DNA from: Terriglobia bacterium
GTDB taxonomy: Bacteria; Acidobacteriota; Terriglobia; JAJPHL01; JAPKYU01
Reading direction: 5' to 3'
Length of the DNA: 64,000 nt
Assembly: GCA_965206645.1 (NCBI GenBank)
Contig: CBDBKE010000004.1
Location: 1,824,001-1,888,000 of the forward strand
Below the pieces are notes generated by a model that searched no databases, had not been told where the DNA came from, and saw only the letters and a program-made list of their open reading frames with translations. The stretch's first letter is position 1. Each line of letters begins with the position of its first letter. Positions 1,979 through 45,031 of the stretch are shown here, in pieces. The translations under genes were made by a program, and so were the position numbers.

Positions 1979-3376
1979 TCAGTGTCGCGCCAGCTGTTCA
2001 GCTTCCTCGCGCTCGGCGGCGGGAAGCAACTCCCCGATCAAGCTGTTGGGACCGGCTCTGCCCACCTGCACCCAGGCGTAGGAGCCAAGCCGGTTGCGGT
2101 CAGGCGAGCCTGCGGGAACCGTGAAGTTCAGCACCTTGTTCTGTGAGGTGCGTCCCACCCACTGGTGCAACGCCGGCTGGCGGCCTTCGACCAGTACCTC
2201 CTGGACCGAGTCCACCAGCGCCTGGTTCCGACCCAACTGGATCTGCCGCTGCCTCTCCTGCAGAATCGTCAATCGCCGACCCTTTTGCTCTTCGGGAACC
2301 TGGTTGAAGAACTCCCGTGCTGCAGTATTTGGGCGCGGCGAGTACTTGAACGAAAAGGCGGAATCGTACTGAACTTCCTCCAACAGCGAAAGGGTCTGGG
2401 CAAAGTCCTCCTCGGTCTCGCCAGGGAAGCCCACAATCAGGTCCGTTGTGATGCTGATAGCACGCCGCGCCGTCCGGATACAAGCGATCTTTTCCAGGTA
2501 CTGCTCGCGGCTGTAGCCGCGCTGCATCTGCTCCAGTACGCGGTTGGAGCCGGCCTGCACCGGCAGGTGAACGTGGTCGCACAGCGCCGGGTGGCGGTCG
2601 ATGGCTTCCACGATGTCGGGCGTGAAGTCGCGCGGGTGTGAGGTTGTGAAGCGGACGCGGCGGATGCCTGGCACCTCGGCGACGGCTGAGAGCAGCTCGG
2701 CAAAGCTGAAGCGCGCCGAGGATGGATCGCGGTAGGAGTTGACCGTCTGGCCTAGCAACTGGATCTCCGTGTAGCCCGTCTCGGCCAGGCGGCGCGCCTC
2801 GGCCAGAACGTCGGTGCTGCTGCGGCTGCGCTCCGGCCCCCGAGTGAATGGCACCACGCAAAAGGCGCAGTGATTGTTGCAGCCCTCGATGATGGTGAGA
2901 TAGGCGCGGTACGGGTTGTCGCGCCGGGTAAACTCGGTCTCGAAGGTCTCCTCGGTGTCCAGCTCCAGGCCGGTAACCCGGCGGTTGCCTGACTCCAGTT
3001 GCATCAGAAGTTCCGGCAACTTCCGGTAGCTTGCCGAACCCACCACCAGGCTGACGTGCGGTGCCTTCTCGAAAATTCGCGTCCCTTCCTGCTGCGCCAC
3101 ACAGCCCAGCACGCCGAACAGCTTGCCGCCGAACAGCTTGCCGTTGTTCTGGCCATTGTTCTGCGTCCGCTTGAACTGCCCCAGGCGGGAGAAGACCTTC
3201 TGTTCGGCTTTGTCGCGGATAGAGCAGGTGTTGTACAACACCAGGTCGGCTTCCTCGGGCGTCTCGACGGGCCGGTACCCCTGCGCCATCAACGTGCCCG
3301 CCACCTTCTCGGAGTCGTGCACGTTCATCTGGCAACCGAACGTCTCGATGTAGAAGGTCTTTTGACCGCGTTCCAT
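1979..3376 (-). CDS. miaB: tRNA-i6A37 methylthiotransferase MiaB
   Basis: TFGCQMNVHDSE, NTCSIRDKAEQK, radical SAM motif CNNHCAFC and a C-terminal TRAM region. Confidence 0.95.
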   Translation of the reverse strand: MERGQKTFYIETFGCQMNVHDSEKVAGTLMAQGYRPVETPEEADLVLYNTCSIRDKAEQKVFSRLGQFKRTQNNGQNNGKLFGGKLFGVLGCVAQQEGTRIFEKAPHVSLVVGSASYRKLPELLMQLESGNRRVTGLELDTEETFETEFTRRDNPYRAYLTIIEGCNNHCAFCVVPFTRGPERSRSSTDVLAEARRLAETGYTEIQLLGQTVNSYRDPSSARFSFAELLSAVAEVPGIRRVRFTTSHPRDFTPDIVEAIDRHPALCDHVHLPVQAGSNRVLEQMQRGYSREQYLEKIACIRTARRAISITTDLIVGFPGETEEDFAQTLSLLEEVQYDSAFSFKYSPRPNTAAREFFNQVPEEQKGRRLTILQERQRQIQLGRNQALVDSVQEVLVEGRQPALHQWVGRTSQNKVLNFTVPAGSPDRNRLGSYAWVQVGRAGPNSLIGELLPAAEREEAEQLARH

Positions 3377-3530
3377 TGACGGCCATTATAACAGACCTGC
3401 CGACGATTCAGTGTTTGGTGGTCCTCTCTCGTCCTGGCTGACACGATTTGGAGCACCGTCGTCTGGCATGCCGTTCAGGAGCGCCAAGTGCGGAAATCCG
3501 CAAAGCCAATCCGCTATCATGAGGGCGCCG

Positions 3531-3902
3531 ATGCCACCCGTCCCTCAAGCAGCAAAAGAACGCCTGGCGCGGGAACGTAACATCTGGATCGCTACCGCGC
3601 GTCCGGACGGACGGCCGCATATGGTGCCGGTGTGGTTTACGCAGGTGGAGGACCAGCTCTACATCTGCATTGAGCCGCAAAGCGTGAAAGGGCGGAACCT
3701 GCGGTCCAACCGGAAGGTTTGCCTGGCGCTGGAAGACGGCGTAAACCCTCTCATCTGCGAAGGCGCGGCACAAGTTCTGGAGAAACCCTGGCCGACCGCG
3801 GTGGTTTCAGGGTTCGTCGAAAAATACGGCTGGGACATCTCCGTCGAGCGTCAGTACACCCAGCTTATCGAGATCACTCCACACAAGTGGCTCCACTGGT
3901 GA
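3531..3902 (+). CDS. Pyridoxamine 5'-phosphate oxidase-like (PPOX class) split-barrel protein
   Basis: WIATARPDGRPHMVPVWF and K.RNL..N.KV motifs. ATG 3531 follows GAGGG; 3519 is an alternative start. Confidence 0.8.
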   Translation: MPPVPQAAKERLARERNIWIATARPDGRPHMVPVWFTQVEDQLYICIEPQSVKGRNLRSNRKVCLALEDGVNPLICEGAAQVLEKPWPTAVVSGFVEKYGWDISVERQYTQLIEITPHKWLHW

Positions 3903-3936
3903 GAAGCTCGGAGTACCCATCAGAAGTTCGTTAGTC

Positions 3937-4020
3937 CTGCCTATTTGACATCTTTGACATCCTGACAGTCCGCCATGCGCCATGACACCGCTCAAAGCGG
4001 CGTCTCAGGAGGGCGAAGAT
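3937..4020. repeat. Direct repeat copy 1 of the hydrolase gene 3' end (copy 2 at 4269-4344)
   Basis: Identical to 4269-4344 except for 8 extra bases (gacaccgc). Confidence 0.95.
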
Positions 4021-4268
4021 CACGTTGGCGACCGACATTGACGTATACTTCTGTGATCCTCAGAGTCCATGGCAGCGCGGTTCGAATGAGAACACCAACG
4101 GTCTACTCCGACAGTACTTCCCCAAGGGAACGGACTTGTCGGTGCACTCTCAGGCGCATCTGAACAAGGTGGCACGTCAGCTGAACGAACGGCCCCGTCA
4201 GACGCTGGAGTTTGAAACTCCGGCAGAACGATTTAACGCTTGTGTTGCATCGACCGGTTGAGCTGGCA
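4021..4268 (+). mobile_element. IS30-family remnant: transposase C-terminus and probable right end
   Basis: [31 protein letters not shown]...[16 protein letters not shown] is the IS30 C-terminal signature. The N-terminus is absent. Confidence 0.88.
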
Positions 4269-4272
4269 CTGC

Positions 4273-5922
4273 CTATTTGACATCTTTGACATCCTGACAG
4301 TCCGCCATGCGCCATTCAAAGCGGCGTCTCAGGAGGGCGAAGATGAAGAAGGGCAGAACGGCGAAACGGAGGATGACCCAGCCGGCCAGACGCAGCGACT
4401 CCTGGTCCACAAAGCCCTGCGCCGCGCGGATGGAAACAATCGCCGCCAGGGCCCCGAACAGAGCCAGCACCAGAAGCCAGGCCCCCCATTTTCTTCGCTC
4501 CGGCCCGGCAGTTTTGCCTCGCCGCGGTACAAAGCGCCGAGCCAGGCCCCACAGCCCACCCAGCACCAGGCCTGGCCGGACCAACTCCACGGCCAAGATT
4601 CCCAAGAAAAGCCATCCCGGGCGCAGCACAGCCCCGGTATAGCTGGAAAACAGCAGCCCTCGCGGATAAACGAACAGGTAGGAATTGAGCAGGCCAGTGG
4701 CGTGCCAAAAGGGAAACGCGGGCAGCCCAACTAGCAGGTGTGGATAGCGCCAGAAGTAAGCCCCCTGGTTGACCGCGAGCGTGATCAGCAGGCTGAACCA
4801 GCCCAGCGCAATCAGTGTAATCAGCCGTGCCGCGCGGCTCGCCACACCGCCCGTGGCACCGGTAGGAAGGATTTTGCTTCTTGCGTTGACCACCAGTAGC
4901 AACGCCAGGCTCCACAGCGTCAAGTCGGCGCGGAGCAGTGCAAGTCTTGGCAACGGCACCAGAACCAGTGCCGCCACCAGCACGCCGATCGCGACAGTGA
5001 ACAGGCGCAGCCGTGTGGGGCGCACTCGACGCACCAGCAGCAACCAGCCAAACAGGAACGCCAGGCTGTAGCAGGCGTAAAACCAGGGTGCGACAGCCAG
5101 GCCCGGTCGGGGCGCTGCGCGCCCCTCAAATGAGCTAGTGAACCATTCCAACGCGCGCACCGCCGTGCCGTGGTTTGAAAACTCGGTGAAGTGGTCGGCT
5201 GTGGCGGTCACGCTCAGTCGCCGCGCCGTTCCCCGCCCGAAATCGCCGGTGGTGCGCTCAATTTCCGCGATCCCCTCGCTGTTGCTCGATTCCATCACCT
5301 GCTGCATCTCGGAAAGCGGGCGGAACTCGTCGTAGAGCCCCACCAGCCAGAGCAGGTTCTGCGGCCGGGTCTTGGTGACGTCGCCGGCGATGCCCACCGC
5401 GACAGTGGCGCGCACCCAGGGCTGCTCGATGCCGGCGCGGAGGGCGAGCGTGCCCCCCACGGAATGGCCGATCAGGCCGATGCGGGCGCGGTCCACATCG
5501 GGCCGGAGGACCAGGTAATCCAGTGCGGCGCCGGCGTCCAAGGCTGTGATGGCCAGCAGGTTCTCGCGCAGCAGGCTGCGGTTTTCACCGGGAGCGGCCC
5601 CGCGGAAATCGAACGTCACCACCAGCATGCCTCTCCGCACGAATTCCAGGATCAACGCCAGCCCTGCTTCCGGCGGGCTGTTCACCGGCTGGCAGACCAG
5701 GACAGCGGGCCGCGGGCGCTGTCCCTTGTGCGGCTCGAATACCACCACGCGGAGTGGCATGTCCCGTGCATTCTTCAATACCACTGTGTAGCGGTCGAAG
5801 GACGCCAGCCGAGTCCAGGCCAACATGCCAACCAGTGCGGTCAACAGGAAGAGGCCGGCCAGCAGGTGGTCAAGAAACCGGGGAGCGCGAAGAAGCGGCG
5901 GCGGTATGCGGCTTTGTTCCAT
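4273..5922 (-). CDS. Alpha/beta hydrolase with C-terminal multi-pass membrane domain
   Basis: Nucleophile elbow GHSVGG, FDFRG motif, N-terminal anchor and several hydrophobic helices in the C-terminal half. Confidence 0.8.
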   Translation of the reverse strand: MEQSRIPPPLLRAPRFLDHLLAGLFLLTALVGMLAWTRLASFDRYTVVLKNARDMPLRVVVFEPHKGQRPRPAVLVCQPVNSPPEAGLALILEFVRRGMLVVTFDFRGAAPGENRSLLRENLLAITALDAGAALDYLVLRPDVDRARIGLIGHSVGGTLALRAGIEQPWVRATVAVGIAGDVTKTRPQNLLWLVGLYDEFRPLSEMQQVMESSNSEGIAEIERTTGDFGRGTARRLSVTATADHFTEFSNHGTAVRALEWFTSSFEGRAAPRPGLAVAPWFYACYSLAFLFGWLLLVRRVRPTRLRLFTVAIGVLVAALVLVPLPRLALLRADLTLWSLALLLVVNARSKILPTGATGGVASRAARLITLIALGWFSLLITLAVNQGAYFWRYPHLLVGLPAFPFWHATGLLNSYLFVYPRGLLFSSYTGAVLRPGWLFLGILAVELVRPGLVLGGLWGLARRFVPRRGKTAGPERRKWGAWLLVLALFGALAAIVSIRAAQGFVDQESLRLAGWVILRFAVLPFFIFALLRRRFEWRMADCQDVKDVK

Positions 5923-30496: not shown

Positions 30497-30794
30497 GACG
30501 AACAGGTGCTTTCTGTGCCGCCTCGGCGGTCCGGATCACCAACTTGTATGGCAATCGAGACTAACATAAGCTGGCAGATGACGCAGGGTGCAAGATGACC
30601 GGAGGCAGATGGGCGGGTCCGGCAGAGCCGGCCGTACGGACCTCGAATGCCTACAAGTCACGGAACGGCAGGTTCCATAACCGTCCACAGCGCGGTTTTC
30701 CCCGTTCGAGCTTTCAGACTTGCATTTGAAGCTAAAATGGCTCAGTATAAGCGGTTTGCAGGGAGTGCCGAATTTCAAGTCTGGCAGAGACTCC

Positions 30795-32654
30795 ATGGCT
30801 GAAACACCACCTGAAACAACGAACGCTGTGCCAGCGGGCCGGGAGACACCGGAACTGAGAAGCAATGGGCCGGGCGCCGACGGGAACCACAGCGGCAAAC
30901 TGATCGTCCTGACCGCGCCGCTAACGGAAACCATCGACCACGCCGGCTACTTCATCCAGATGGCCATGGCCTCCATGCCGATCTGGATGGAGTTTGTGTT
31001 GAACCGCAAGTACCCGAACTGGCGGGACGTGGAGTACAACGAGGATGGCACGGCGCGTTACATGCCGGCAGGCGTTCGGCTGCTGGAGAAGTCACTGCTG
31101 CGGGAGTTCCCCAGGGAAGACATGGCAGCCTGTTACCCGGACGACCTGGAGAAGTTCATTGGCCCCAATACCCGTATCGTGGCGGTTTCGACCCACAATC
31201 CCTTGGGGGTGACCTTCGCCGCTGGTGTCTACGCCTCCATCTTCGGCTCTTCGCGGTCCCCGATTAACTCCCACTACGCCAAACAACTCTTTTACAAGAT
31301 CAAGGAAAGCTCCCACCGGGACAATTTCAAGGTGATTGTCGGCGGCTCGGGTGGATGGCAGATCGCGCAAACCAACAGCTATGATGAGTTGAGCGTAGAT
31401 ACCGTCGTGGATGGCCGCAGCGAATCAACCGACACGCTGGCCCTGTTCCACCAAGCGATTCGCGGTGAAGCGCTGCCGCGGCAGGTGGAGGTGGCGCATC
31501 CCATGGCCCGCGACGAGATTCTCACTCCGGACGCCCGAACAACCTTTGGCGTGGTCGAGATGACCACCGGTTGTGGCCGCCGCTGCCAGTTCTGCCTGCC
31601 AGATTTGAATCCGGCACTGGACGTTCCCAAACAGAACATCATGGCCGCCGTGCAGGCCAACGTCCGGGACGGCAACAATCAGATCTCGCTGGCCACCGAA
31701 GACATGTTCATTTGGGGACAGATCCGGACCGATACGCCCTTCTTCTTTCCCAACCGCGAGGCATTGTTGGATCTGTACGGTGAGATCGTAAACACCCCGG
31801 GTGTCGAAAATCATGTCTTGAGCCATTGCACGATGGCGCCCTTCGTGGTGGATCCACTCTTGATCAAGAAGCTTTCCGAGATTCTGCTGCCGAAAAGTCC
31901 CATTCATCTGCCGCGCTTGAGCACCCACCCGCAGAAGAAGGCGATCTCCCCGCTGATCGGCCTGGAGACCGGCTCGGTCCGTACCGCCAAGAAGATCATG
32001 CCCAGCAAGGGCGTGCCGTTTTTCATCGAAGACTGGCCCAGCGTGGTGCTGGAAGGTCTCCGGGTTGCCAACGAAAACAACTGGTTTCCGGTGATGACGC
32101 TGATCGTGGGCAGCCCCGGCGAGGCCGATGAAGACGTGATGGCCACGCTGGACCTGATTTACGAGATGGAGCGACGCGGCTTGTTCGCCATTCTGGTGCC
32201 CTCCATCTTCACGCCCCTGCACGATACCCGCTTGGAGGCGTCCATGGGCGTGACCGAAACGCAGCAACTGACTCCGCTGCAGTGGCAGCTCATCCTGAAG
32301 TGCTGGAAATTTGATCTGCGCCCTGCCCTGCAAAGCTGGTGGGGTCCCACCGTCTGGCGTGTGGGTTCCATCAGCATGTGGCTCTACAAGCTGCGGCGGC
32401 TCAACGGGCCGAACTTCACCTGGCCGTTGTGGATGTTTTCCGGGGCTGTCCCGGAGAAGTTGCTGGCCTGGATGGGAAAGATTTACATCGGCAAGCCGCT
32501 GAAGACCAAGACCCGCAAAGAATTGATCGCCTCAGTGAAGCCCCATTACTTACAATATTTTCGCGCGGACAACGAAGACCTTCCCGACCACTACACGCCG
32601 CCCCGGCCCGACCCGCAAGCCCGAGCCCAGGAACCCCTGCGAGTCGTTTCCTGA
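30795..32654 (+). CDS. Radical SAM protein resembling the archaeal GDGT ring synthase (Grs) family
   Basis: CGRRCQFC, KVIVGG and GLETGS. Motif order matches GrsA/B as I recall them (no alignment run). Start placed at MAETPPE. Confidence 0.78.
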   Translation: MAETPPETTNAVPAGRETPELRSNGPGADGNHSGKLIVLTAPLTETIDHAGYFIQMAMASMPIWMEFVLNRKYPNWRDVEYNEDGTARYMPAGVRLLEKSLLREFPREDMAACYPDDLEKFIGPNTRIVAVSTHNPLGVTFAAGVYASIFGSSRSPINSHYAKQLFYKIKESSHRDNFKVIVGGSGGWQIAQTNSYDELSVDTVVDGRSESTDTLALFHQAIRGEALPRQVEVAHPMARDEILTPDARTTFGVVEMTTGCGRRCQFCLPDLNPALDVPKQNIMAAVQANVRDGNNQISLATEDMFIWGQIRTDTPFFFPNREALLDLYGEIVNTPGVENHVLSHCTMAPFVVDPLLIKKLSEILLPKSPIHLPRLSTHPQKKAISPLIGLETGSVRTAKKIMPSKGVPFFIEDWPSVVLEGLRVANENNWFPVMTLIVGSPGEADEDVMATLDLIYEMERRGLFAILVPSIFTPLHDTRLEASMGVTETQQLTPLQWQLILKCWKFDLRPALQSWWGPTVWRVGSISMWLYKLRRLNGPNFTWPLWMFSGAVPEKLLAWMGKIYIGKPLKTKTRKELIASVKPHYLQYFRADNEDLPDHYTPPRPDPQARAQEPLRVVS

Positions 32655-35674: not shown

Positions 35675-36769
35675 ATGACGAGCACAAGAACCGTTTGGCT
35701 GCTGGTGGGAATATTGTGTCTGGCCTCCTTTGCCGTGGCCCAAGACACGGCCTGGGAGAAATACAACGAGGCCGGAGTGGAGGCTTATGAGCAAGGCCGC
35801 TACACCGAGGCCGAGAAGCAGTGGAAGGCTGCCCTCAAGGAAGCGGAAAAGTTTGGCCCGAACGATTCGCGCTTGGCCACCAGCCTGAACAACCTGGCGG
35901 TGCTTTACAAGGCCCAGGGCAAGTACGGGCAGGCCGAGCCGCTCTACAAGCGGTCGCTGGCAATCAAGGAAAAGGCCCTGGGGCGGGAGCATCCGAGCGT
36001 GGCCACAAGCCTCAACAATCTCGCGGTGCTCTACGACGCCCAAGGCAAGTATGCCGAGGCTGAGCCGCTCTACCTGCGCACCATCGCGATTGATGAGAAG
36101 GCATTGGGACCGGACCACCCAGATGTTGCGACGGGCCTCAACAACCTAGCGGTGCTCTACAAAACGCAGGGCCAGTACACCGAAGCCGAGCCACTCTACC
36201 GGCGGGCGCTAGCAATTGCTGAGAAGGCCCTGGGGCCGGAGCACCCGGATGTAGCCGTCAGCCTCAACAACCTGGCGGAACTCTACCGCGCCTAGGGCCA
36301 GTATGCCGAAGCCGTGCCGCACTTTGGTCGGGCGCTAGCCATCTGGGAGAAGGTCCTGGGGCCGGAGCATCCGCACGTGGCTGCCAGCCTCAGCGGCGTG
36401 GGGTTGGTGTATCACGCCCAGGGCCAGTACGCCGAGGCGGAGCCGCTCTTGCGGCGCGCGCTGGCGATCATGGAGAAGGCGCTGGGCCCGGAGCATCCAA
36501 GCGTGGCGACCAGCCTCAACAACCTGGCGGAACTCTACCGCGCCCAGGACCAGTATGCCGAGGCCGAGCCGCTTAATGGGAGAGCGCTGGCAATCTGGGA
36601 GAAGGCGCTGGGGCCGGAACATCCAAACGTGGCCCAGAGCCTGGAGAACTATGCTGAGCTTCTACGGAAGACGAATCGGGAGGCCGAGGCGGCACGACTG
36701 AAGGCCCGCGCCCAGGCCATCCGCGCCAAACACGCCCAAGAGAACCCCCAAAAGAATCCAAAGAAGTGA
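35675..36769 (+). pseudogene. Exported TPR-repeat protein with an in-frame TAG at 36293-36295
   Basis: 42-aa ATSLNNLA.LY..QG.Y.EAEPL repeats continue in the same frame across GCC TAG GGC; sister repeats have GCC CAG GGC. Confidence 0.88.
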
Positions 36770-36957
36770 TACCCGCGATCTGGGGAGAACTCCAAAAGCC
36801 AGGGCGAAGCCCCGAAGCCCGGAGATCTTTTCGGGGGAAACCATCGCTTCTATTTTGTGCCACGGCCCGATGACCGGAGGGGCCGCATTGCTGAGTTGGA
36901 GTATGATTCGCCCAAAGGGAGAATGGTCTGCCCTACCTCTCGCATTGGGAGGCCACG

Positions 36958-37677
36958 ATGACGACAATAAGAACTGTTTGGCTGCTGGTGTTGGGAGCAG
37001 TGTGTGTGGCCTCCTCCGCCGTGGTCCAAGACACGGCCTGGGAGAAGTACAACGGGGCCGGAATGGCGGCTTATGCGAGAGGCCGCCACGCTGAGGCCGA
37101 GAAGCATTGGAAGGCTGCGTTGAAGGAAGCAGAAAAGTTCGGAGAGCAAGACCCACGGCTAGCCACCAGCCTCAACAATTTGGGTATGCTCCAGAGCGGA
37201 CAGGGTAGATACACCGAGGCCGAGCCGCTCTTCCGCCGAGCGCTGGCAATCCGGGAGAAGGCCCTGGGGCCGAAACATCGCGAAGTGGCTCAGAGCCTCA
37301 ACAACCTGGCGGCACTTTACCAGGCCCAGGGCAGCCACGCCGAAGGCGAGCCGCTCTTGCGGCGGTCGGTAGCGATCCGGGAAAAGGCGCTGGGGCCGGA
37401 GCATCCTAGCGTGGCCATCAGCCTCAACAACCTGGCGTTGCTCTACCGCGCCCAGGGGAAGTACACCGAGGCCGAGCCGCTCTTCCGCCGGGCGCTGGCG
37501 GTTTGGGAGAAGGCCCTGGGGCCGGAGCATCCCAACGTGGCGATGGCTCTAGAGAATCATGCTGAGCTTCTACGGAAGACGAATCGGGCGGCCGAGGCGG
37601 CCAAAATGGAGGCCCGCGCCCAGGCCATCCGAGCCAAACACGCCCAAGAGAACCCCCCAAAGAATCCAAAGAAGTGA
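36958..37677 (+). CDS. Exported TPR-repeat protein, shorter tandem paralog
   Basis: Similar signal peptide, same QDTAWEKYN segment and nearly identical KHAQENP.KNPKK end as the upstream copy. Confidence 0.9.
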   Translation: MTTIRTVWLLVLGAVCVASSAVVQDTAWEKYNGAGMAAYARGRHAEAEKHWKAALKEAEKFGEQDPRLATSLNNLGMLQSGQGRYTEAEPLFRRALAIREKALGPKHREVAQSLNNLAALYQAQGSHAEGEPLLRRSVAIREKALGPEHPSVAISLNNLALLYRAQGKYTEAEPLFRRALAVWEKALGPEHPNVAMALENHAELLRKTNRAAEAAKMEARAQAIRAKHAQENPPKNPKK

Positions 37678-37879
37678 TGCGTACGATCTGGGCAGAGCCC
37701 AAAAACCGGGGCGAAACCCCGGCCGCCAGAGGGCGTTTCTGCGGCTGCCAGCCATCGAGCAAAGCGATATGGCCGAACGTAGGTTCGCAGAACGTGTGTA
37801 AAGACTTGCAGAATCAATAGGAAACAAGTATCCTGATGGACTTGTTTGATTGCCGGGCTCGATCGCCGGAAAGAGATCC

Positions 37880-38737
37880 ATGAGTAACACGGCCACGTTG
37901 TTGAGTTCGGTGCCCGCGGTTCGAGAGCGCTTTTCTCCCGAAAAAGCTGTCATTCTCCTGGGACTCCACCTCGGAGCGATTGGTGCCCTGTGGCATACGA
38001 GCTGGGCAGCGGTGGCAGTCTGCTTCCTGCTCCACTGGGTCTGCGGCGGGCTGGGGATTTGCGTGGGTTACCATCGTCTGCTCACGCATCGGTCGTTCCG
38101 GTGTCCGCGCGCGTTGGAATACGCTCTGGCTCTGTTCGGCTCGCTCTCCCTGCACGGGGGACCGATTGAATGGGTCACTCATCATCGCCAGCACCATCAG
38201 TATCCGGACCAGGAGGGAGATCCCCACAACGCTCGCCAGAGTTTCTGGTGGAGTCACGTGTTCTGGATATTCTGGGACCATCCCCCCGAAGTTTCGCAAA
38301 AGCTCAACGAGCGCTACGTGCCCGACTTGCTGCGCGTGCCGTTCTACACCTTCCTGGCGCGGATGTATCCCTGGCTGGCAGTCTTACTGACGGTGCTGCT
38401 GTACGTCCTGGGCGGATGGCCTTTCGTGGTGTGGGGAGTATTCGTGCGTTTAGTGTTGACCTATCACTGCACTTTTTTAGTGAATTCAGCCAGCCATGGA
38501 TTTGGATACCAAAGTTTCCCCACCAATGATCTCTCCACCAACTCCTGGTGGGTGGCGCTGTTGTCCTACGGTGAGGGGTGGCACAACAACCACCACGCGT
38601 TTCCCACTTCGGCCCGGCACGGATTAAAGGCTTGGGAATTGGATCCCACCTACTGGTTCATCCGTTTGCTAAGCGCGGTGGGACTGGCATGGGACTTGCG
38701 TCTGCCGGTCCTCTCCAAAGAATCCGCGCGCTCGTGA
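37880..38737 (+). CDS. Membrane fatty acid desaturase (delta-9 type)
   Basis: His boxes HRLLTH, HRQHH and GEGWHNNHH. Confidence 0.93.
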   Translation: MSNTATLLSSVPAVRERFSPEKAVILLGLHLGAIGALWHTSWAAVAVCFLLHWVCGGLGICVGYHRLLTHRSFRCPRALEYALALFGSLSLHGGPIEWVTHHRQHHQYPDQEGDPHNARQSFWWSHVFWIFWDHPPEVSQKLNERYVPDLLRVPFYTFLARMYPWLAVLLTVLLYVLGGWPFVVWGVFVRLVLTYHCTFLVNSASHGFGYQSFPTNDLSTNSWWVALLSYGEGWHNNHHAFPTSARHGLKAWELDPTYWFIRLLSAVGLAWDLRLPVLSKESARS

Positions 38738-43540: not shown

Positions 43541-45031
43541 ATGAACCTCTTGTTTCTCTACCCTGAGTTCCCTACCACCTTCTGGAGTTTCAAGCATGCC
43601 TTGAAGTTCGAGAGGAAGCGCTCGGCCTTCCCTCCGCTCGGCCTGATGACCATCGCCCCCCTTTTTCCTGCCGGGTGGAACCGACGTTTGGTGGACTTGA
43701 ACGTCGAGCCCCTGCGTGACCGCGACCTGAAGTGGGCGGACGTGGCGCTGATCAGCGGGATGCTGGTCCAGCAGGAGTCGATGGAGGAAGTGGCGCGCCG
43801 CTGCCGCCGCCATGGCCTGCCTGTGGTCATGGGCGGCCCAATTACCAGCGGAGTGGATTTCAGCCACCTCGCCGACGCGGTGATGCAGGGCGAGGCCGAA
43901 GACCTGATCGGGCAGCTCGCCACCGACCTCGAAGCCAGGAGCTTGAAGCCGGTCTACGGGCACCCGGAGCGGCCCTCGTTGCTTCGCTCGCCGCTGCCGG
44001 ACTTAAGCCTGATCCGCATCCAGAAGTACAGTGCCATGGCTCTCCAGTATTCACGCGGCTGCCCGTTCAACTGCGAATTCTGTGACATCATCGAAATTTA
44101 CGGGCGCAAACCGCGCACCAAGAGCCCCCCGCAGGTGGTGGAAGAGCTGGAATCGCTGCTGCGCGCCGGGTGGCGAGGCTCGGTGTTCATTGTGGACGAC
44201 AATTTCATTGGCAACAAACCCAATGTAAAGCAGCTTCTGCCGGTGCTCGCCGACTGGACCGAGCGGAATCACCACCCGTTTTACTTCCTCACCGAGGCTT
44301 CGCTGAACCTGGCCGAGGACGAGGAGCTGTTGGGGCAAATGCGCCGCGCCAACTTCGTGAAGGTCTTCCTGGGAATTGAGACACCGGTGGAGGCCAGCCT
44401 CATCGAGACGCAGAAATATCAGAATACCCGGAAGGATTTGCTGGAGAGCGTGCGTCTGATCCAGAGCTATGGTCTGGAAGTGATGGGTGGCTTCATCGTG
44501 GGCTTCGACAACGATCCGCCCAATATCTTCGAAGAGCAACTGCGTTTCATCCGCGAGAGCGCCATCCCCGTCGCCATGGTCGCGTTGCTCACGGCTCTGC
44601 CCAACACCCAGCTCTACCGCCGCCTCCAGCGTGAGGGCCGCCTGCTGATACAGAGCAGCGGCAATAACGTGGCCACGGATTGCAGGCTGAACTTCATCCC
44701 GCGGATGAATGCCGAGACGCTGGTCGATGGGTACAAGAACCTCCTCAAGGTCATCTACAATCCCGAAGAATACTACCGCCGCGCGTTGCGATTCCTGGAA
44801 CACAGTGGACCGAGCACTGCCCAGACCGTTCGCAAGCTTTCCGATTACCTAGCCTTTGGCACCTCCTTGCTGCGCCAGGGCGTCCTGGGAAGTTCGCGAA
44901 TGGCCTATTGGCGCTTCCTGATGCAGGCCGCGCGTCATCACCGTCACGAGTTTGGGACCGCAGTGGGCCTGGCCATCCGCGGCTACCACCTCCAGCAGAT
45001 CACGAAAACCTACTGCGGCAACACGCCCTAG
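43541..45031 (+). CDS. B12-binding radical SAM protein with DUF4070-type C-terminus
   Basis: YPEFPTTFWSF, PPLGL.T, SRGCPFNCEFCDI, VDDNFIGN, GFIVGFD.D and NFIP motifs. Confidence 0.88.
   Translation: MNLLFLYPEFPTTFWSFKHALKFERKRSAFPPLGLMTIAPLFPAGWNRRLVDLNVEPLRDRDLKWADVALISGMLVQQESMEEVARRCRRHGLPVVMGGPITSGVDFSHLADAVMQGEAEDLIGQLATDLEARSLKPVYGHPERPSLLRSPLPDLSLIRIQKYSAMALQYSRGCPFNCEFCDIIEIYGRKPRTKSPPQVVEELESLLRAGWRGSVFIVDDNFIGNKPNVKQLLPVLADWTERNHHPFYFLTEASLNLAEDEELLGQMRRANFVKVFLGIETPVEASLIETQKYQNTRKDLLESVRLIQSYGLEVMGGFIVGFDNDPPNIFEEQLRFIRESAIPVAMVALLTALPNTQLYRRLQREGRLLIQSSGNNVATDCRLNFIPRMNAETLVDGYKNLLKVIYNPEEYYRRALRFLEHSGPSTAQTVRKLSDYLAFGTSLLRQGVLGSSRMAYWRFLMQAARHHRHEFGTAVGLAIRGYHLQQITKTYCGNTP

What the first reader, a model, noticed from the sequence alone, without database searches (positions are those of the whole stretch)
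30795..32654. Bacterial radical SAM enzyme resembling archaeal GDGT ring synthases: candidate brGDGT-tailoring enzyme
Seen, in order: IVLTA..MASMP, DGTARYMPAGVRLLE, LEKFI...T.IVAVSTHNPLG, NFKVIVGG..GW, VEMTTGCGRRCQFC, LATEDMFIWG, PLIGLETGS, M.SK..PF...DW..VV, NW.P..T..VG.PGE..EDV and WKFDL. From memory this order parallels Sulfolobus GrsA/GrsB; I ran no alignment. Known: Grs enzymes form cyclopentane rings in archaeal tetraether lipids, and some Acidobacteria make branched GDGTs. To my knowledge the bacterial cyclising and methylating enzymes are not established. Inference: this gene cyclises or otherwise modifies bacterial membrane-spanning lipids, which matter as paleoclimate proxies.
Basis: partly seen in the sequence, partly recalled or inferred. 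Interest (0 to 1): 0.72.

Follow-up and report, generated by a model that had tools for sequence, protein, structure and literature searches.

The report
Acidobacterial homologue of archaeal lipid ring synthases
This soil-bacterium gene really is a relative of the archaeal enzymes that put five-membered rings into membrane-spanning lipids, which makes it a sound but still untested candidate for ring formation in the bacterial lipids used as climate proxies, an idea already in print since 2022.

Summary

The recalled resemblance to Sulfolobus GrsA/GrsB is now tested:
- BLASTP gives 29% identity to GrsA (E 3e-42) and 25% to GrsB (E 1e-45).
- Both are reciprocal best matches.
- The architecture matches: Rossmann-like N domain, CX3CX2C barrel, C-terminal helices, no auxiliary-cluster cysteines.

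Phylogeny:
- The gene sits in a monophyletic Acidobacteriota clade inside the Grs-like family.
- That clade is sister to Grs-like proteins of uncultured archaea and lies outside the subclade holding GrsA and GrsB.

Limits on the lipid reading:
- It is a stand-alone gene, 41 kb from the genome's Tes-like gene, with no conserved neighbours.
- Its distribution is patchy: 15 of 201 phylum genomes.
- It is unusually conserved.

Function is inferred, not shown. The idea that acidobacterial Grs homologues cyclise brGDGTs was published in 2022. I found no experimental test in the held library. Gms, Tes and methylase membership are rejected.

Earlier notes of this scan describe other bacterial Grs-like genes, in terpene operons, on other DNA.

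The parts
30795..32654 (+). Grs-like radical SAM gene, 619 aa, stop codon included
   Evidence: ORF and translation. An identical 619-aa protein is on record. Homology to GrsA and GrsB.
30795..30884 (+). Poorly conserved, predicted-disordered N-terminal extension (aa 1-30), absent from GrsA and GrsB
   Evidence: pLDDT below 50 for residues 1-3 and 5-30. Variable in alignment A1. No counterpart in the GrsA/GrsB rows of A4.
30903..31490 (+). N-terminal Rossmann-like (B12-binding-like) domain, aa 37-232, alternating strand-helix units
   Evidence: AF2 secondary structure. Foldseek matches to two-domain enzymes MiaB, MgmA, TsrM, RimO, AprD4, OxsB and TokK. Family-wide conserved G183/G184/G186/W188.
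31572..31595 (+). CX3CX2C motif (C260, C264, C267) for the radical SAM [4Fe-4S] cluster
   Evidence: Invariant in 66 of 66 aligned family members.
31542..32219 (+). Radical SAM partial TIM-barrel core, about aa 250-475, with the GLETGS and PGE..EDV motifs shared with GrsA and GrsB
   Evidence: PF04055 match at residues 254-455. AF2 model. Three-way alignment with GrsA and GrsB.
32274..32558 (+). C-terminal helical, Trp/Leu-rich region (helices 494-507, 517-537, 543-549, 554-559, 574-588); about 70-80 aa longer than in GrsA
   Evidence: AF2 model and alignment. C-terminal hydrophobic helices are described for GrsA in PMC11186832 and PMC13459092 (passages).

Best explanation
The gene encodes a bacterial member of the GDGT-ring-synthase-like (Grs-like) radical SAM family. 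Shown here: homology to both validated Sulfolobus enzymes, the same three-part architecture, and a single [4Fe-4S] site. Inferred: like GrsA and GrsB, it uses 5'-deoxyadenosyl radicals to abstract hydrogen from two unactivated carbons of a long, methyl-branched, membrane-embedded alkyl chain, and joins a methyl carbon to a chain carbon four positions away, forming a cyclopentane ring. The most likely substrate in this organism is the 13,16-dimethyl mid-chain of iso-diabolic-acid-type membrane-spanning lipids or brGDGTs, made with the genome's Tes-like and PlsA/Ger-like genes. The C-terminal amphipathic helices would dock the enzyme on the membrane. A cobalamin cofactor in the N domain is possible but untested. 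I put family membership at about 0.9 and the ring-forming role on membrane-spanning bacterial lipids at about 0.45.
For: Direct homology to validated enzymes:
- GrsA (Q4J8I0, P0319): 29% identity over 393 aa, E 3e-42, covering GrsA residues 46-411 of 489.
- GrsB (Q4JC22, P0311): 25% identity over 479 aa, E 1e-45, covering residues 4-452 of 528.
- The two reference proteins were named by exact look-up. The accession-to-enzyme assignment comes from PMC13023045 (passages).

Reciprocity:
- GrsA finds only this gene in the own genome (E 1.5e-36).
- GrsB finds it first (5.1e-42), with the next match at 4.1e-8.
- The family profile finds GrsB (4.6e-144) and GrsA (5.0e-134) in their genome, with the next match at 4.9e-26.

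Family range:
- The same profile hits 269 of 301 genomes of a Thermoproteota sample, in 1-3 matches each.
- Named relatives are Bathyarchaeia, Hadarchaeia, Korarchaeota, Asgard groups, Thermoplasmata and Nitrososphaerota.
- This matches the published range of grs homologues (Blum et al., bioRxiv 10.1101/2022.08.15.504015, passages).

Architecture:
- The AF2 model is confident (pLDDT 87.6, pTM 0.87) and shows a Rossmann-like N domain, a radical SAM barrel and C-terminal helices.
- Only the three CX3CX2C cysteines are invariant in 66 rows.
- GrsA, GrsB and the target all hit PF04055 alone in Pfam.

Pathway context in the own genome:
- A Tes-like gene (NF045702, 337.7 bits).
- A 1168-aa BcrAD_BadFG + DUF2229 protein of PlsA/Ger type.
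- In the phylum sample, 14 of 15 holders of the target type and 4 of 4 holders of the sister type also have a Tes-like gene, against 103 of the other 182 genomes. These genomes are kin, not independent.

Other: contigs from RNA libraries of two studies cover the gene.
Against: - No lipid data exist for this organism or this clade.
- The gene is not linked to the Tes-like gene (41 kb apart).
- Among 14 relatives' loci plus the window, no neighbour family recurs in more than 3 loci.
- Neighbours in the window are a Ser/Thr kinase, UvrC, TPR proteins and an SDR.
- Most Tes-like holders lack the gene: 103 of 121.
- In the careful tree the bacterial clade lies outside the 14-row clade holding GrsA and GrsB (support 87/99). 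It is sister (94/92) to uncharacterised archaeal proteins, so no validated enzyme brackets it.
- brGDGT rings lie mid-chain, a different position from the C-7 and C-3 rings made by GrsA and GrsB (PMC13459092, passages).
- Earlier notes of this scan report other bacterial Grs-like genes in terpene operons, so bacterial family members need not act on tetraethers.
- The target is 69-74% identical across families where UvrC is 47-52% identical. That is unusual for a lipid-tailoring enzyme.
Confidence: 0.5

Rival explanations
1. A Grs-like cyclase or C-C bond-forming enzyme for a different hydrophobic substrate of Acidobacteriota, such as a polyprenoid, hopanoid, carotenoid or ordinary branched fatty acyl chain, and not membrane-spanning tetraether or tetraester lipids.
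For: The gene is not linked to the Tes-like gene and has no conserved neighbours. 103 of 121 Tes-like holders lack any Grs-like gene. One holder (G011, 94% complete) has no Tes-like match. Earlier scan notes e1-5218777 and e1-5045648 describe other bacterial Grs-like genes in operons with a prenyl-chain synthase and a cyclase (AI notes, unchecked).
Against: No terpene gene lies within about 7 kb in the window. I did not annotate the neighbours in the 14 relatives' loci; I only clustered them. 18 of 19 Grs-like holders do carry a Tes-like gene. Validated family members act on tetraether chains.
Confidence: 0.25
2. The enzyme acts on membrane-spanning bacterial lipids but performs other radical chemistry than ring closure, for example C5/C6 methylation, desaturation or cross-linking.
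For: Homologous archaeal B12-type radical SAM enzymes have diverged into methylases and a desaturase (bioRxiv 10.1101/2025.10.20.683597, passages). The target clade lies outside the GrsA/GrsB subclade. The C-terminal extension and an insert at about residues 365-382 differ from GrsA and GrsB.
Against: The diverged archaeal enzymes are relatives of Gmm, which are canonical B12-binding enzymes, not of Grs. Here PF02310 is not detected at E<=0.01. The genome has five canonical B12-binding radical SAM genes (L002-L006), separated from the Grs-like family by a long 100/100 branch. No SPASM or auxiliary-cluster cysteines exist for Tes/Gms-type cross-linking.
Confidence: 0.12
3. A housekeeping-type modification enzyme for a non-lipid substrate (RNA, protein or cofactor) that merely shares ancestry with Grs.
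For: The best structural matches are MiaB, MgmA and RimO. Weak NCBIfam matches are to MiaB/RimO and TIGR04013. Conservation is very high: 69-74% identity where UvrC is 47-52%. It is a stand-alone gene.
Against: It is found in only 15 of 201 phylum genomes, so it is not housekeeping. There are no conserved N-domain cysteines for a methylthiotransferase auxiliary cluster. No family other than PF04055 was detected, so no TRAM domain. Sequence similarity to GrsA/GrsB (E about 1e-42 to 1e-45) far exceeds that to any MiaB/RimO model (28.7 bits against a cut-off of 251). The Trp-rich C-terminal helices resemble the proposed membrane or substrate helices of GrsA.
Confidence: 0.08

Closest known systems
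GDGT ring synthases GrsA (Saci_1585, Q4J8I0) and GrsB (Saci_0240, Q4JC22) of Sulfolobus acidocaldarius
   Same: Homologous along the N domain and radical SAM core: 29% identity with E 3e-42, and 25% with E 1e-45. Reciprocal best matches. Same order of Rossmann-like domain, CX3CX2C barrel and C-terminal helices. Only one Fe-S site. Shared motifs GxETGS, MPxK..PF..(D/E)W and PxE..(D/E)DV. Only PF04055 is detected in Pfam for all three.
   Different: Bacterial rather than archaeal. 619 aa against 489 and 528. It has a 30-aa disordered N-terminal extension, an insert at about residues 365-382 and a longer C-terminal helical region. It lies outside the subclade holding both validated enzymes in the careful tree. 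The presumed substrate is a non-isoprenoid branched chain. Activity is untested.
Acidobacterial 'Grs homologues' already reported (Ca. Solibacter usitatus homologue, Chen et al. 2022 and Halamka et al. 2022; Acidobacteriae MAG homologues, Blum et al. 2022)
   Same: Same phylum and same family. Similarity to Grs is comparable: 25% identity and E 1e-40 reported for S. usitatus, and at least 27-30% identity for the MAGs. Same proposed role, and the same inference of an archaeal origin for a bacterial clade nested among archaeal sequences.
   Different: I could not see which published sequences are meant, because supplements are closed. Acidobacteriota hold two paralogous clades. One is the roughly 615-aa target type. 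The other is a roughly 555-590-aa sister type at 37-43% identity, whose named members include a Bryobacteraceae MAG. Which type S. usitatus carries was not established here.
Uncharacterised Grs-like proteins of Bathyarchaeia, Hadarchaeia, Thermoplasmata, Brockarchaeota and Methanophagales MAGs
   Same: Sister group of the bacterial clade in the careful tree (94/92). About 30% identity. Same architecture.
   Different: Archaeal, about 510-560 aa, with no experimental data. All come from metagenome bins.
Cobalamin-dependent and related two-domain radical SAM enzymes with solved structures (MgmA 9CCB, TsrM 6WTE, TokK 7KDX, OxsB 5UL3, AprD4 6FD2) and methylthiotransferases MiaB 7MJZ and RimO 4JC0
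   Same: Overall fold of a Rossmann-like N domain plus a radical SAM barrel (Foldseek E 1e-13 to 8e-7, TM 0.40-0.48 on the query).
   Different: 10-15% identity. No PF02310 match. No auxiliary-cluster cysteines and no TRAM domain. Canonical B12-binding radical SAM genes of the same genome form a distant outgroup (100/100 branch).

Membership tests
Grs (GDGT ring synthase) family | Sequence similarity to both validated enzymes at the thresholds used in the literature (Blum et al.: at least 70% coverage, at least 20% identity, E<=1e-40 to GrsA and GrsB) | tested here: met
   GrsA: 29% identity, E 3e-42, residues 46-411 of 489 (75%). GrsB: 25% identity, E 1e-45, residues 4-452 of 528 (85%). These E-values are for two-sequence comparisons and would be weaker against a database.
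Grs (GDGT ring synthase) family | Reciprocal best match between genomes | tested here: met
   GrsA and GrsB each find the target first in the own genome (1.5e-36; 5.1e-42, next 4.1e-8). The family profile finds GrsB and GrsA first in their genome (4.6e-144 and 5.0e-134, next 4.9e-26). There is no paralogue in the own genome.
Grs (GDGT ring synthase) family | N-terminal Rossmann-like domain, partial TIM barrel with CX3CX2C, and C-terminal helix or helices (PMC13459092, PMC11186832) | tested here: met
   AF2 model with pLDDT 87.6. Foldseek matches to two-domain radical SAM enzymes. C260/C264/C267 are invariant.
Grs (GDGT ring synthase) family | No auxiliary Fe-S cluster | tested here: met
   The target has six Cys, and only the three of CX3CX2C are invariant in 66 rows. 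C503 is present in 47 of 66 rows, C113 in 11 and C345 in 8.
Grs (GDGT ring synthase) family | Placement inside the clade bracketed by validated GrsA and GrsB | tested here: inconclusive
   Careful PMSF tree: the bacterial clade (100/100) lies outside a 14-row GrsA+GrsB clade (87/99, not starred), and the base of the family is a polytomy. Quick LG+G4 tree: outside a 24-row GrsA+GrsB clade (99*). Quick PMSF tree: GrsA and GrsB branch separately at the base, so their bracket would include the target. The root rests on a very long outgroup branch.
Grs (GDGT ring synthase) family | Cobalamin bound in the N domain | not testable with these tools
   PF02310 was not detected for the target, GrsA or GrsB. 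Cobalamin is not a ligand offered by the complex tool.
Grs (GDGT ring synthase) family | Forms cyclopentane rings in membrane-spanning lipid chains | not testable with these tools
   Needs genetics or biochemistry with lipid LC-MS.
Gms (GMGT synthase) | SPASM-domain radical SAM with two auxiliary [4Fe-4S] clusters (PMC11186832) | tested here: not met
   No SPASM family at E<=0.01 and no conserved cysteines beyond CX3CX2C. I did not hold a Gms sequence to compare directly.
Tes (tetraether synthase) | Match to NF045702 (rSAM_GDGT_ether) | tested here: not met
   The target has no NF045702 match at E<=0.01. The genome's Tes-like gene is a different one, L001 (337.7 bits).
Canonical B12-binding radical SAM methylases (Gmm/Cgm/HpnP/HpnR type) | PF02310 B12-binding domain plus PF04055, often with DUF4070 | tested here: not met
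   Only PF04055 was found. Matches to TIGR04013/04014 reach 37 and 20 bits against cut-offs of 251 and 360. Own-genome enzymes of that type are a distant outgroup.
MiaB/RimO methylthiotransferases | N-terminal domain with three Cys for an auxiliary cluster, and a C-terminal TRAM domain | tested here: not met
   TIGR00089 scores 28.7 bits against a cut-off of 251. There are no conserved N-domain cysteines and no TRAM family in Pfam. The genome has its own RimO, L009.

The most novel reading that the evidence does not exclude
Acidobacteriota carry two paralogous Grs-derived clades of archaeal origin: the roughly 615-aa target type and a roughly 555-590-aa sister type. They co-occur in some genomes, as GrsA and GrsB do in Sulfolobus. 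On this reading these are the long-sought brGDGT / iso-diabolic-acid cyclases, with divided labour (different chain types, or first versus second ring). The target type's exceptional conservation would then reflect recent spread within the phylum or tight coupling to a membrane partner. If so, the two genes would be direct genetic markers for the ring index (CBT-type pH proxies) in soils and lakes.
Probability: 0.3. Interest if true: 0.8.

Novelty: new member of a known kind. Interest (0 to 1): 0.5.

Why it matters
The degree of cyclisation of branched GDGTs underlies widely used soil and lake pH and temperature proxies. Yet no enzyme that makes the rings has been shown; I found none in four searches of the held library.

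This gene is a well-defined, intact and strongly conserved member of the only enzyme family known to make such rings. It sits in a genome that also has Tes-like and PlsA/Ger-like genes.

Two findings sharpen what should be cloned and tested:
- Acidobacteriota hold two distinct Grs-like clades.
- Neither clade is bracketed by a validated enzyme.

They also caution against calling every BLAST hit a "bacterial Grs". The hypothesis itself is not new.

Tried and rejected
Steps that led nowhere or were corrected:
- A sequence search of solved structures with the protein alone found nothing useful (best E 0.19). A profile search found MgmA 9CCB and MiaB/RimO only. No Grs structure is in the bank copy.
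A closer 8-row archaeal alignment worked.
- I looked for a named cultured holder of the sister clade (Ca. Solibacter usitatus) with P0129. The best 120 of 1585 hits carry only MAG names, so which paralogue S. usitatus has is still open.
- I looked for Thermococcus Grs, which is validated by deletion in T. kodakarensis according to bioRxiv 10.1101/2025.10.20.683597. Searching with an archaeal sister-group protein returned only MAG names among the best 120 of 2688 hits. The validated euryarchaeal enzyme is therefore not in my trees.
- Zeng et al. 2019 (PMC6842593) is not held.
- The promoter and terminator scan around the gene gave no more sites than shuffles.
- Conserved gene neighbourhood: none was found among 14 loci of relatives plus the window.

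Expression:
- In one search, RNA-library contigs cover the gene. Three contigs begin at 30767-30786, and depth is low upstream. Contigs cannot show a transcript start, and DNA may be present in RNA libraries.

Rejected readings: Gms, Tes, canonical B12 methylase and MiaB/RimO (see the membership tests).

Supplements are closed. Table S5 and Fig. S10 of Halamka et al., Tables S1 and S10 of Blum et al., and Datasets S3 and S4 of Garcia et al. may list the very orthologues discussed here.
Full report
**The gene.** Window 30720..32654 (+) is one open frame. The ATG at 30795 gives a 619-aa protein, and an identical 619-aa protein is already on record (P0002). Pfam sees only the radical SAM domain (PF04055, 31.4 bits against a cut-off of 29.5, residues 254-455). 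NCBIfam gives only weak matches far below cut-off: TIGR04013 at 37 bits against 251, and MiaB/RimO at 28.7 against 251. The gene stands alone. It diverges from a Ser/Thr kinase gene upstream. Downstream it converges on a 166-aa ORF, followed by uvrC. The window is G000:C4:1824001-1888000 of a 4.4-Mb genome in four contigs. Close homologues carry Terriglobia, Blastocatellia, Pyrinomonadaceae and Acidobacteriota names.

**How the Grs link was tested.** The gene has no paralogue in its own genome among 33 PF04055 matches.
- A search of 1.84 billion cluster representatives found 951 related clusters. Full-length relatives are 500-560 aa at 28-46% identity.
- Those that carry names are a Bryobacteraceae MAG and Lokiarchaeota/Promethearchaeota, Korarchaeota, Borrarchaeum and Odinarchaeota proteins.
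- The ESM Atlas adds a 586-aa Nitrososphaerota cluster.
- A scan of species-representative genomes with an archaeal sub-alignment found 578 relatives. The best 80 come from Bathyarchaeia, Hadarchaeia, Asgard groups, Thermoplasmata, Methanophagales and Brockarchaeota.
- A profile of the family (A2, which includes the target) hits 269 of 301 genomes of a Thermoproteota sample at E<=1e-30, with 1-3 matches each.
- In one single-contig 2.2-Mb genome of that sample, the two strong matches (4.6e-144 and 5.0e-134; next 4.9e-26) are Q4JC22 and, by cluster, Q4J8I0 of Sulfolobus acidocaldarius, as shown by exact look-up. PMC13023045 (passages) gives these accessions as GrsB and GrsA.

**Direct comparison.**
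- Target against GrsA: 29% identity over 393 aa, E 3e-42.
- Target against GrsB: 25% identity over 479 aa, E 1e-45.
- Searched back against the own genome, GrsA finds only the target (1.5e-36). GrsB finds it first (5.1e-42), and the next match is a canonical B12 enzyme at 4.1e-8.

**Architecture.** AlphaFold2 on a 66-row family alignment gives a confident model (pLDDT 87.6, pTM 0.87).
- Residues 1-30 form a disordered N-terminal tail.
- Residues about 37-232 form a Rossmann-like strand-helix domain.
- Next comes the radical SAM barrel.
- Between residues 494 and 588 lies a set of C-terminal helices rich in Trp and Leu.

Foldseek finds two-domain radical SAM enzymes (MiaB, MgmA 9CCB, TsrM, RimO, AprD4, OxsB, CysS, TokK) at 10-15% identity. 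Only C260, C264 and C267 are invariant in 66 of 66 rows, so there is no auxiliary cluster. This is the layout described for GrsA and GrsB in PMC13459092 and PMC11186832 (passages). It differs from Gms, which is a SPASM enzyme with two auxiliary clusters. GrsA, GrsB and bacterial and archaeal relatives all show PF04055 alone in Pfam, like the target. Compared with GrsA and GrsB, the target has the N-terminal tail, an insert near residues 365-382 and a longer C-terminal region.

**Phylogeny.** Three canonical B12-binding radical SAM proteins of the own genome served as outgroup, and the Grs-like family is separated from them by a long 100/100 branch.
- In the careful tree (46 rows, LG+C20 PMSF), the Acidobacteriota sequences form one clade (100/100) with two subclades. 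One is the target type, together with P0125. The other is a sister type that includes a protein whose cluster holds a Bryobacteraceae MAG member.
- This bacterial clade is sister (94/92) to proteins of Bathyarchaeum, Hadarchaeia, Thermoplasmata, Brockarchaeota and Methanophagales MAGs.
- GrsA and GrsB lie together in a separate 14-row clade (87/99).
- A larger quick tree (77 rows, LG+G4) agrees.
- A quick PMSF tree instead leaves GrsA and GrsB as separate basal lineages.

The robust statement is that the gene is inside the Grs-like family, in a bacterial clade next to uncharacterised archaeal members, and not inside the GrsA or the GrsB subclade. Whether validated enzymes bracket it depends on the root. 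This agrees with Blum et al. (bioRxiv 10.1101/2022.08.15.504015, passages), who found Acidobacteriae grs homologues nested among archaeal ones and inferred transfer from Archaea.

**Distribution.**
- In 201 genomes sampled evenly from the phylum, the target type (59-100% identity) occurs in 15. The sister type (37-39%) occurs in 4 more. Two further weak matches are not orthologues.
- Among 31 close relatives, the target type (69% identity or more, some fragmentary) occurs in 14, including 3 of 3 of the same genus. The sister type occurs in 6, and both occur in 3.
- A Tes-like gene (NF045702, E<=1e-30) occurs in 121 of 201 genomes. It is present in 14 of 15 target-type holders and 4 of 4 sister-type holders, but also in 103 genomes without any Grs-like gene.
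- These counts include genomes flagged as unpublished (G049, G024, G152). The genomes are kin, so no statistics are claimed.
- The target is 69-74% identical in five genomes of other families, where UvrC from the same window is 47-52% identical. This points to either unusually strong constraint or recent spread within the phylum.
- No neighbouring gene family is conserved among 14 relatives' loci and the window. Nothing terpene-related lies near the gene in the window.

**Pathway context.**
- The own genome has a 690-aa Tes-like gene 41 kb away, outside the window (337.7 bits, below the 450 cut-off). Its neighbours are unrelated: FtsH, TilS, an aminotransferase, QueG and an alcohol dehydrogenase.
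- It has a 1168-aa protein with two BcrAD_BadFG domains and DUF2229, of the PlsA/Ger type. The control search with that family also rings in Thermotoga maritima. I did not compare it with Ger itself.
- It has five canonical B12-binding radical SAM genes.

These three elements (ester-to-ether reductase, Tes homologue, Grs homologue) are what Halamka et al. [quoted passage not shown]

**Literature.** Chen et al. 2022 (bioRxiv 10.1101/2022.04.07.487437, passages) noted a Grs homologue in S. usitatus (25% identity, E 1e-40). Halamka et al. and Blum et al. proposed such homologues as brGDGT cyclases. Later papers repeat this as a hypothesis (PMC13023045; PMC13459092). Four searches of the held library turned up no experimental test of a bacterial Grs homologue.

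**Expression.** Contigs from metatranscriptomic libraries of two studies match most of the gene at 95% likeness or better. This shows presence in RNA libraries only.

**Verdict.** The function remains inference, the Gms and methylase readings do not fit, and the idea is already published. What this analysis adds:
- direct reciprocal evidence against the validated enzymes;
- recognition of two Acidobacteriota paralogue clades;
- the target clade's position outside the GrsA/GrsB subclade;
- its patchy distribution;
- its striking conservation;
- its lack of genomic linkage.

Noticed in passing
window 43541..45031 (+): A second radical SAM gene 11 kb downstream. It is canonical, with a B12-binding domain plus PF04055 and DUF4070, and is 496 aa. 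It is a more typical candidate for a C-methylase than the Grs-like gene.
   Followed up: partly
window 1979..3385 (-): A third radical SAM gene in the window, 465 aa, with a strong PF04055 match (104.9 bits) and the motif CNNHCAFC. Not classified.
   Followed up: no
window 37850..38737 (+): A fatty-acid-desaturase family protein (PF00487) 5 kb downstream of the Grs-like gene. It is not conserved next to the gene in relatives.
   Followed up: partly
window 35675..37677 (+): Three tandem paralogous TPR_12/TPR_10 proteins of 206, 151 and 239 aa.
   Followed up: no
G000:C4:1897557-1899629 (-), 10 kb beyond the window end (locus L001/L147): A 690-aa Tes-like gene below the NCBIfam cut-off (337.7 against 450 bits). 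Across the phylum there are two score classes: 32 of 201 genomes score above the cut-off, and most of the rest score around 310-350 bits with longer proteins.
   Followed up: partly
G000:C2:530516-534590 (L004, L006) and G000:C3:302820-304667 (L005): A divergent pair of 578- and 580-aa B12-type radical SAM genes. One of them (L004) has a near-identical second copy on another contig, with the same family scores and the same CPKHCSFC motif.
   Followed up: no
G000:C4:363566-367072 (L146): A 1168-aa protein with BcrAD_BadFG domains and DUF2229, the domain set of PlsA/Ger ether-lipid enzymes. It was not compared with Ger or PlsA directly.
   Followed up: partly
G000:C4:1729355-1731262 (L007): A CUAEP/CCAEP-tail radical SAM (seleno)protein family member (NF040546, 615 bits) with an N-terminal extension of about 170 aa.
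   Followed up: no
G519:C4:2202212-2203957; G511:C7:71040-72762: The orthologue in one relative has an in-frame TGA. In another it is split over two frames, with one TGA in the second piece. This may be decay, sequencing error or recoding; it was not examined.
   Followed up: no
L077 (record titled Candidatus Acidoferrum sp.), match 3001-4437: A contig assigned to an acidobacterial MAG carries an archaeal-type Grs-like gene, 44% identical to a Korarchaeota protein. It may be a binning error or a separate transfer.
   Followed up: no
L136, L137 (G349, G215): Some Thermoproteota-sample genomes have 586-690-aa Grs-like proteins that the profile matches in two pieces, with an insert between the N domain and the radical SAM core. 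The size fits the 586-aa Nitrososphaerota cluster in the Atlas.
   Followed up: partly
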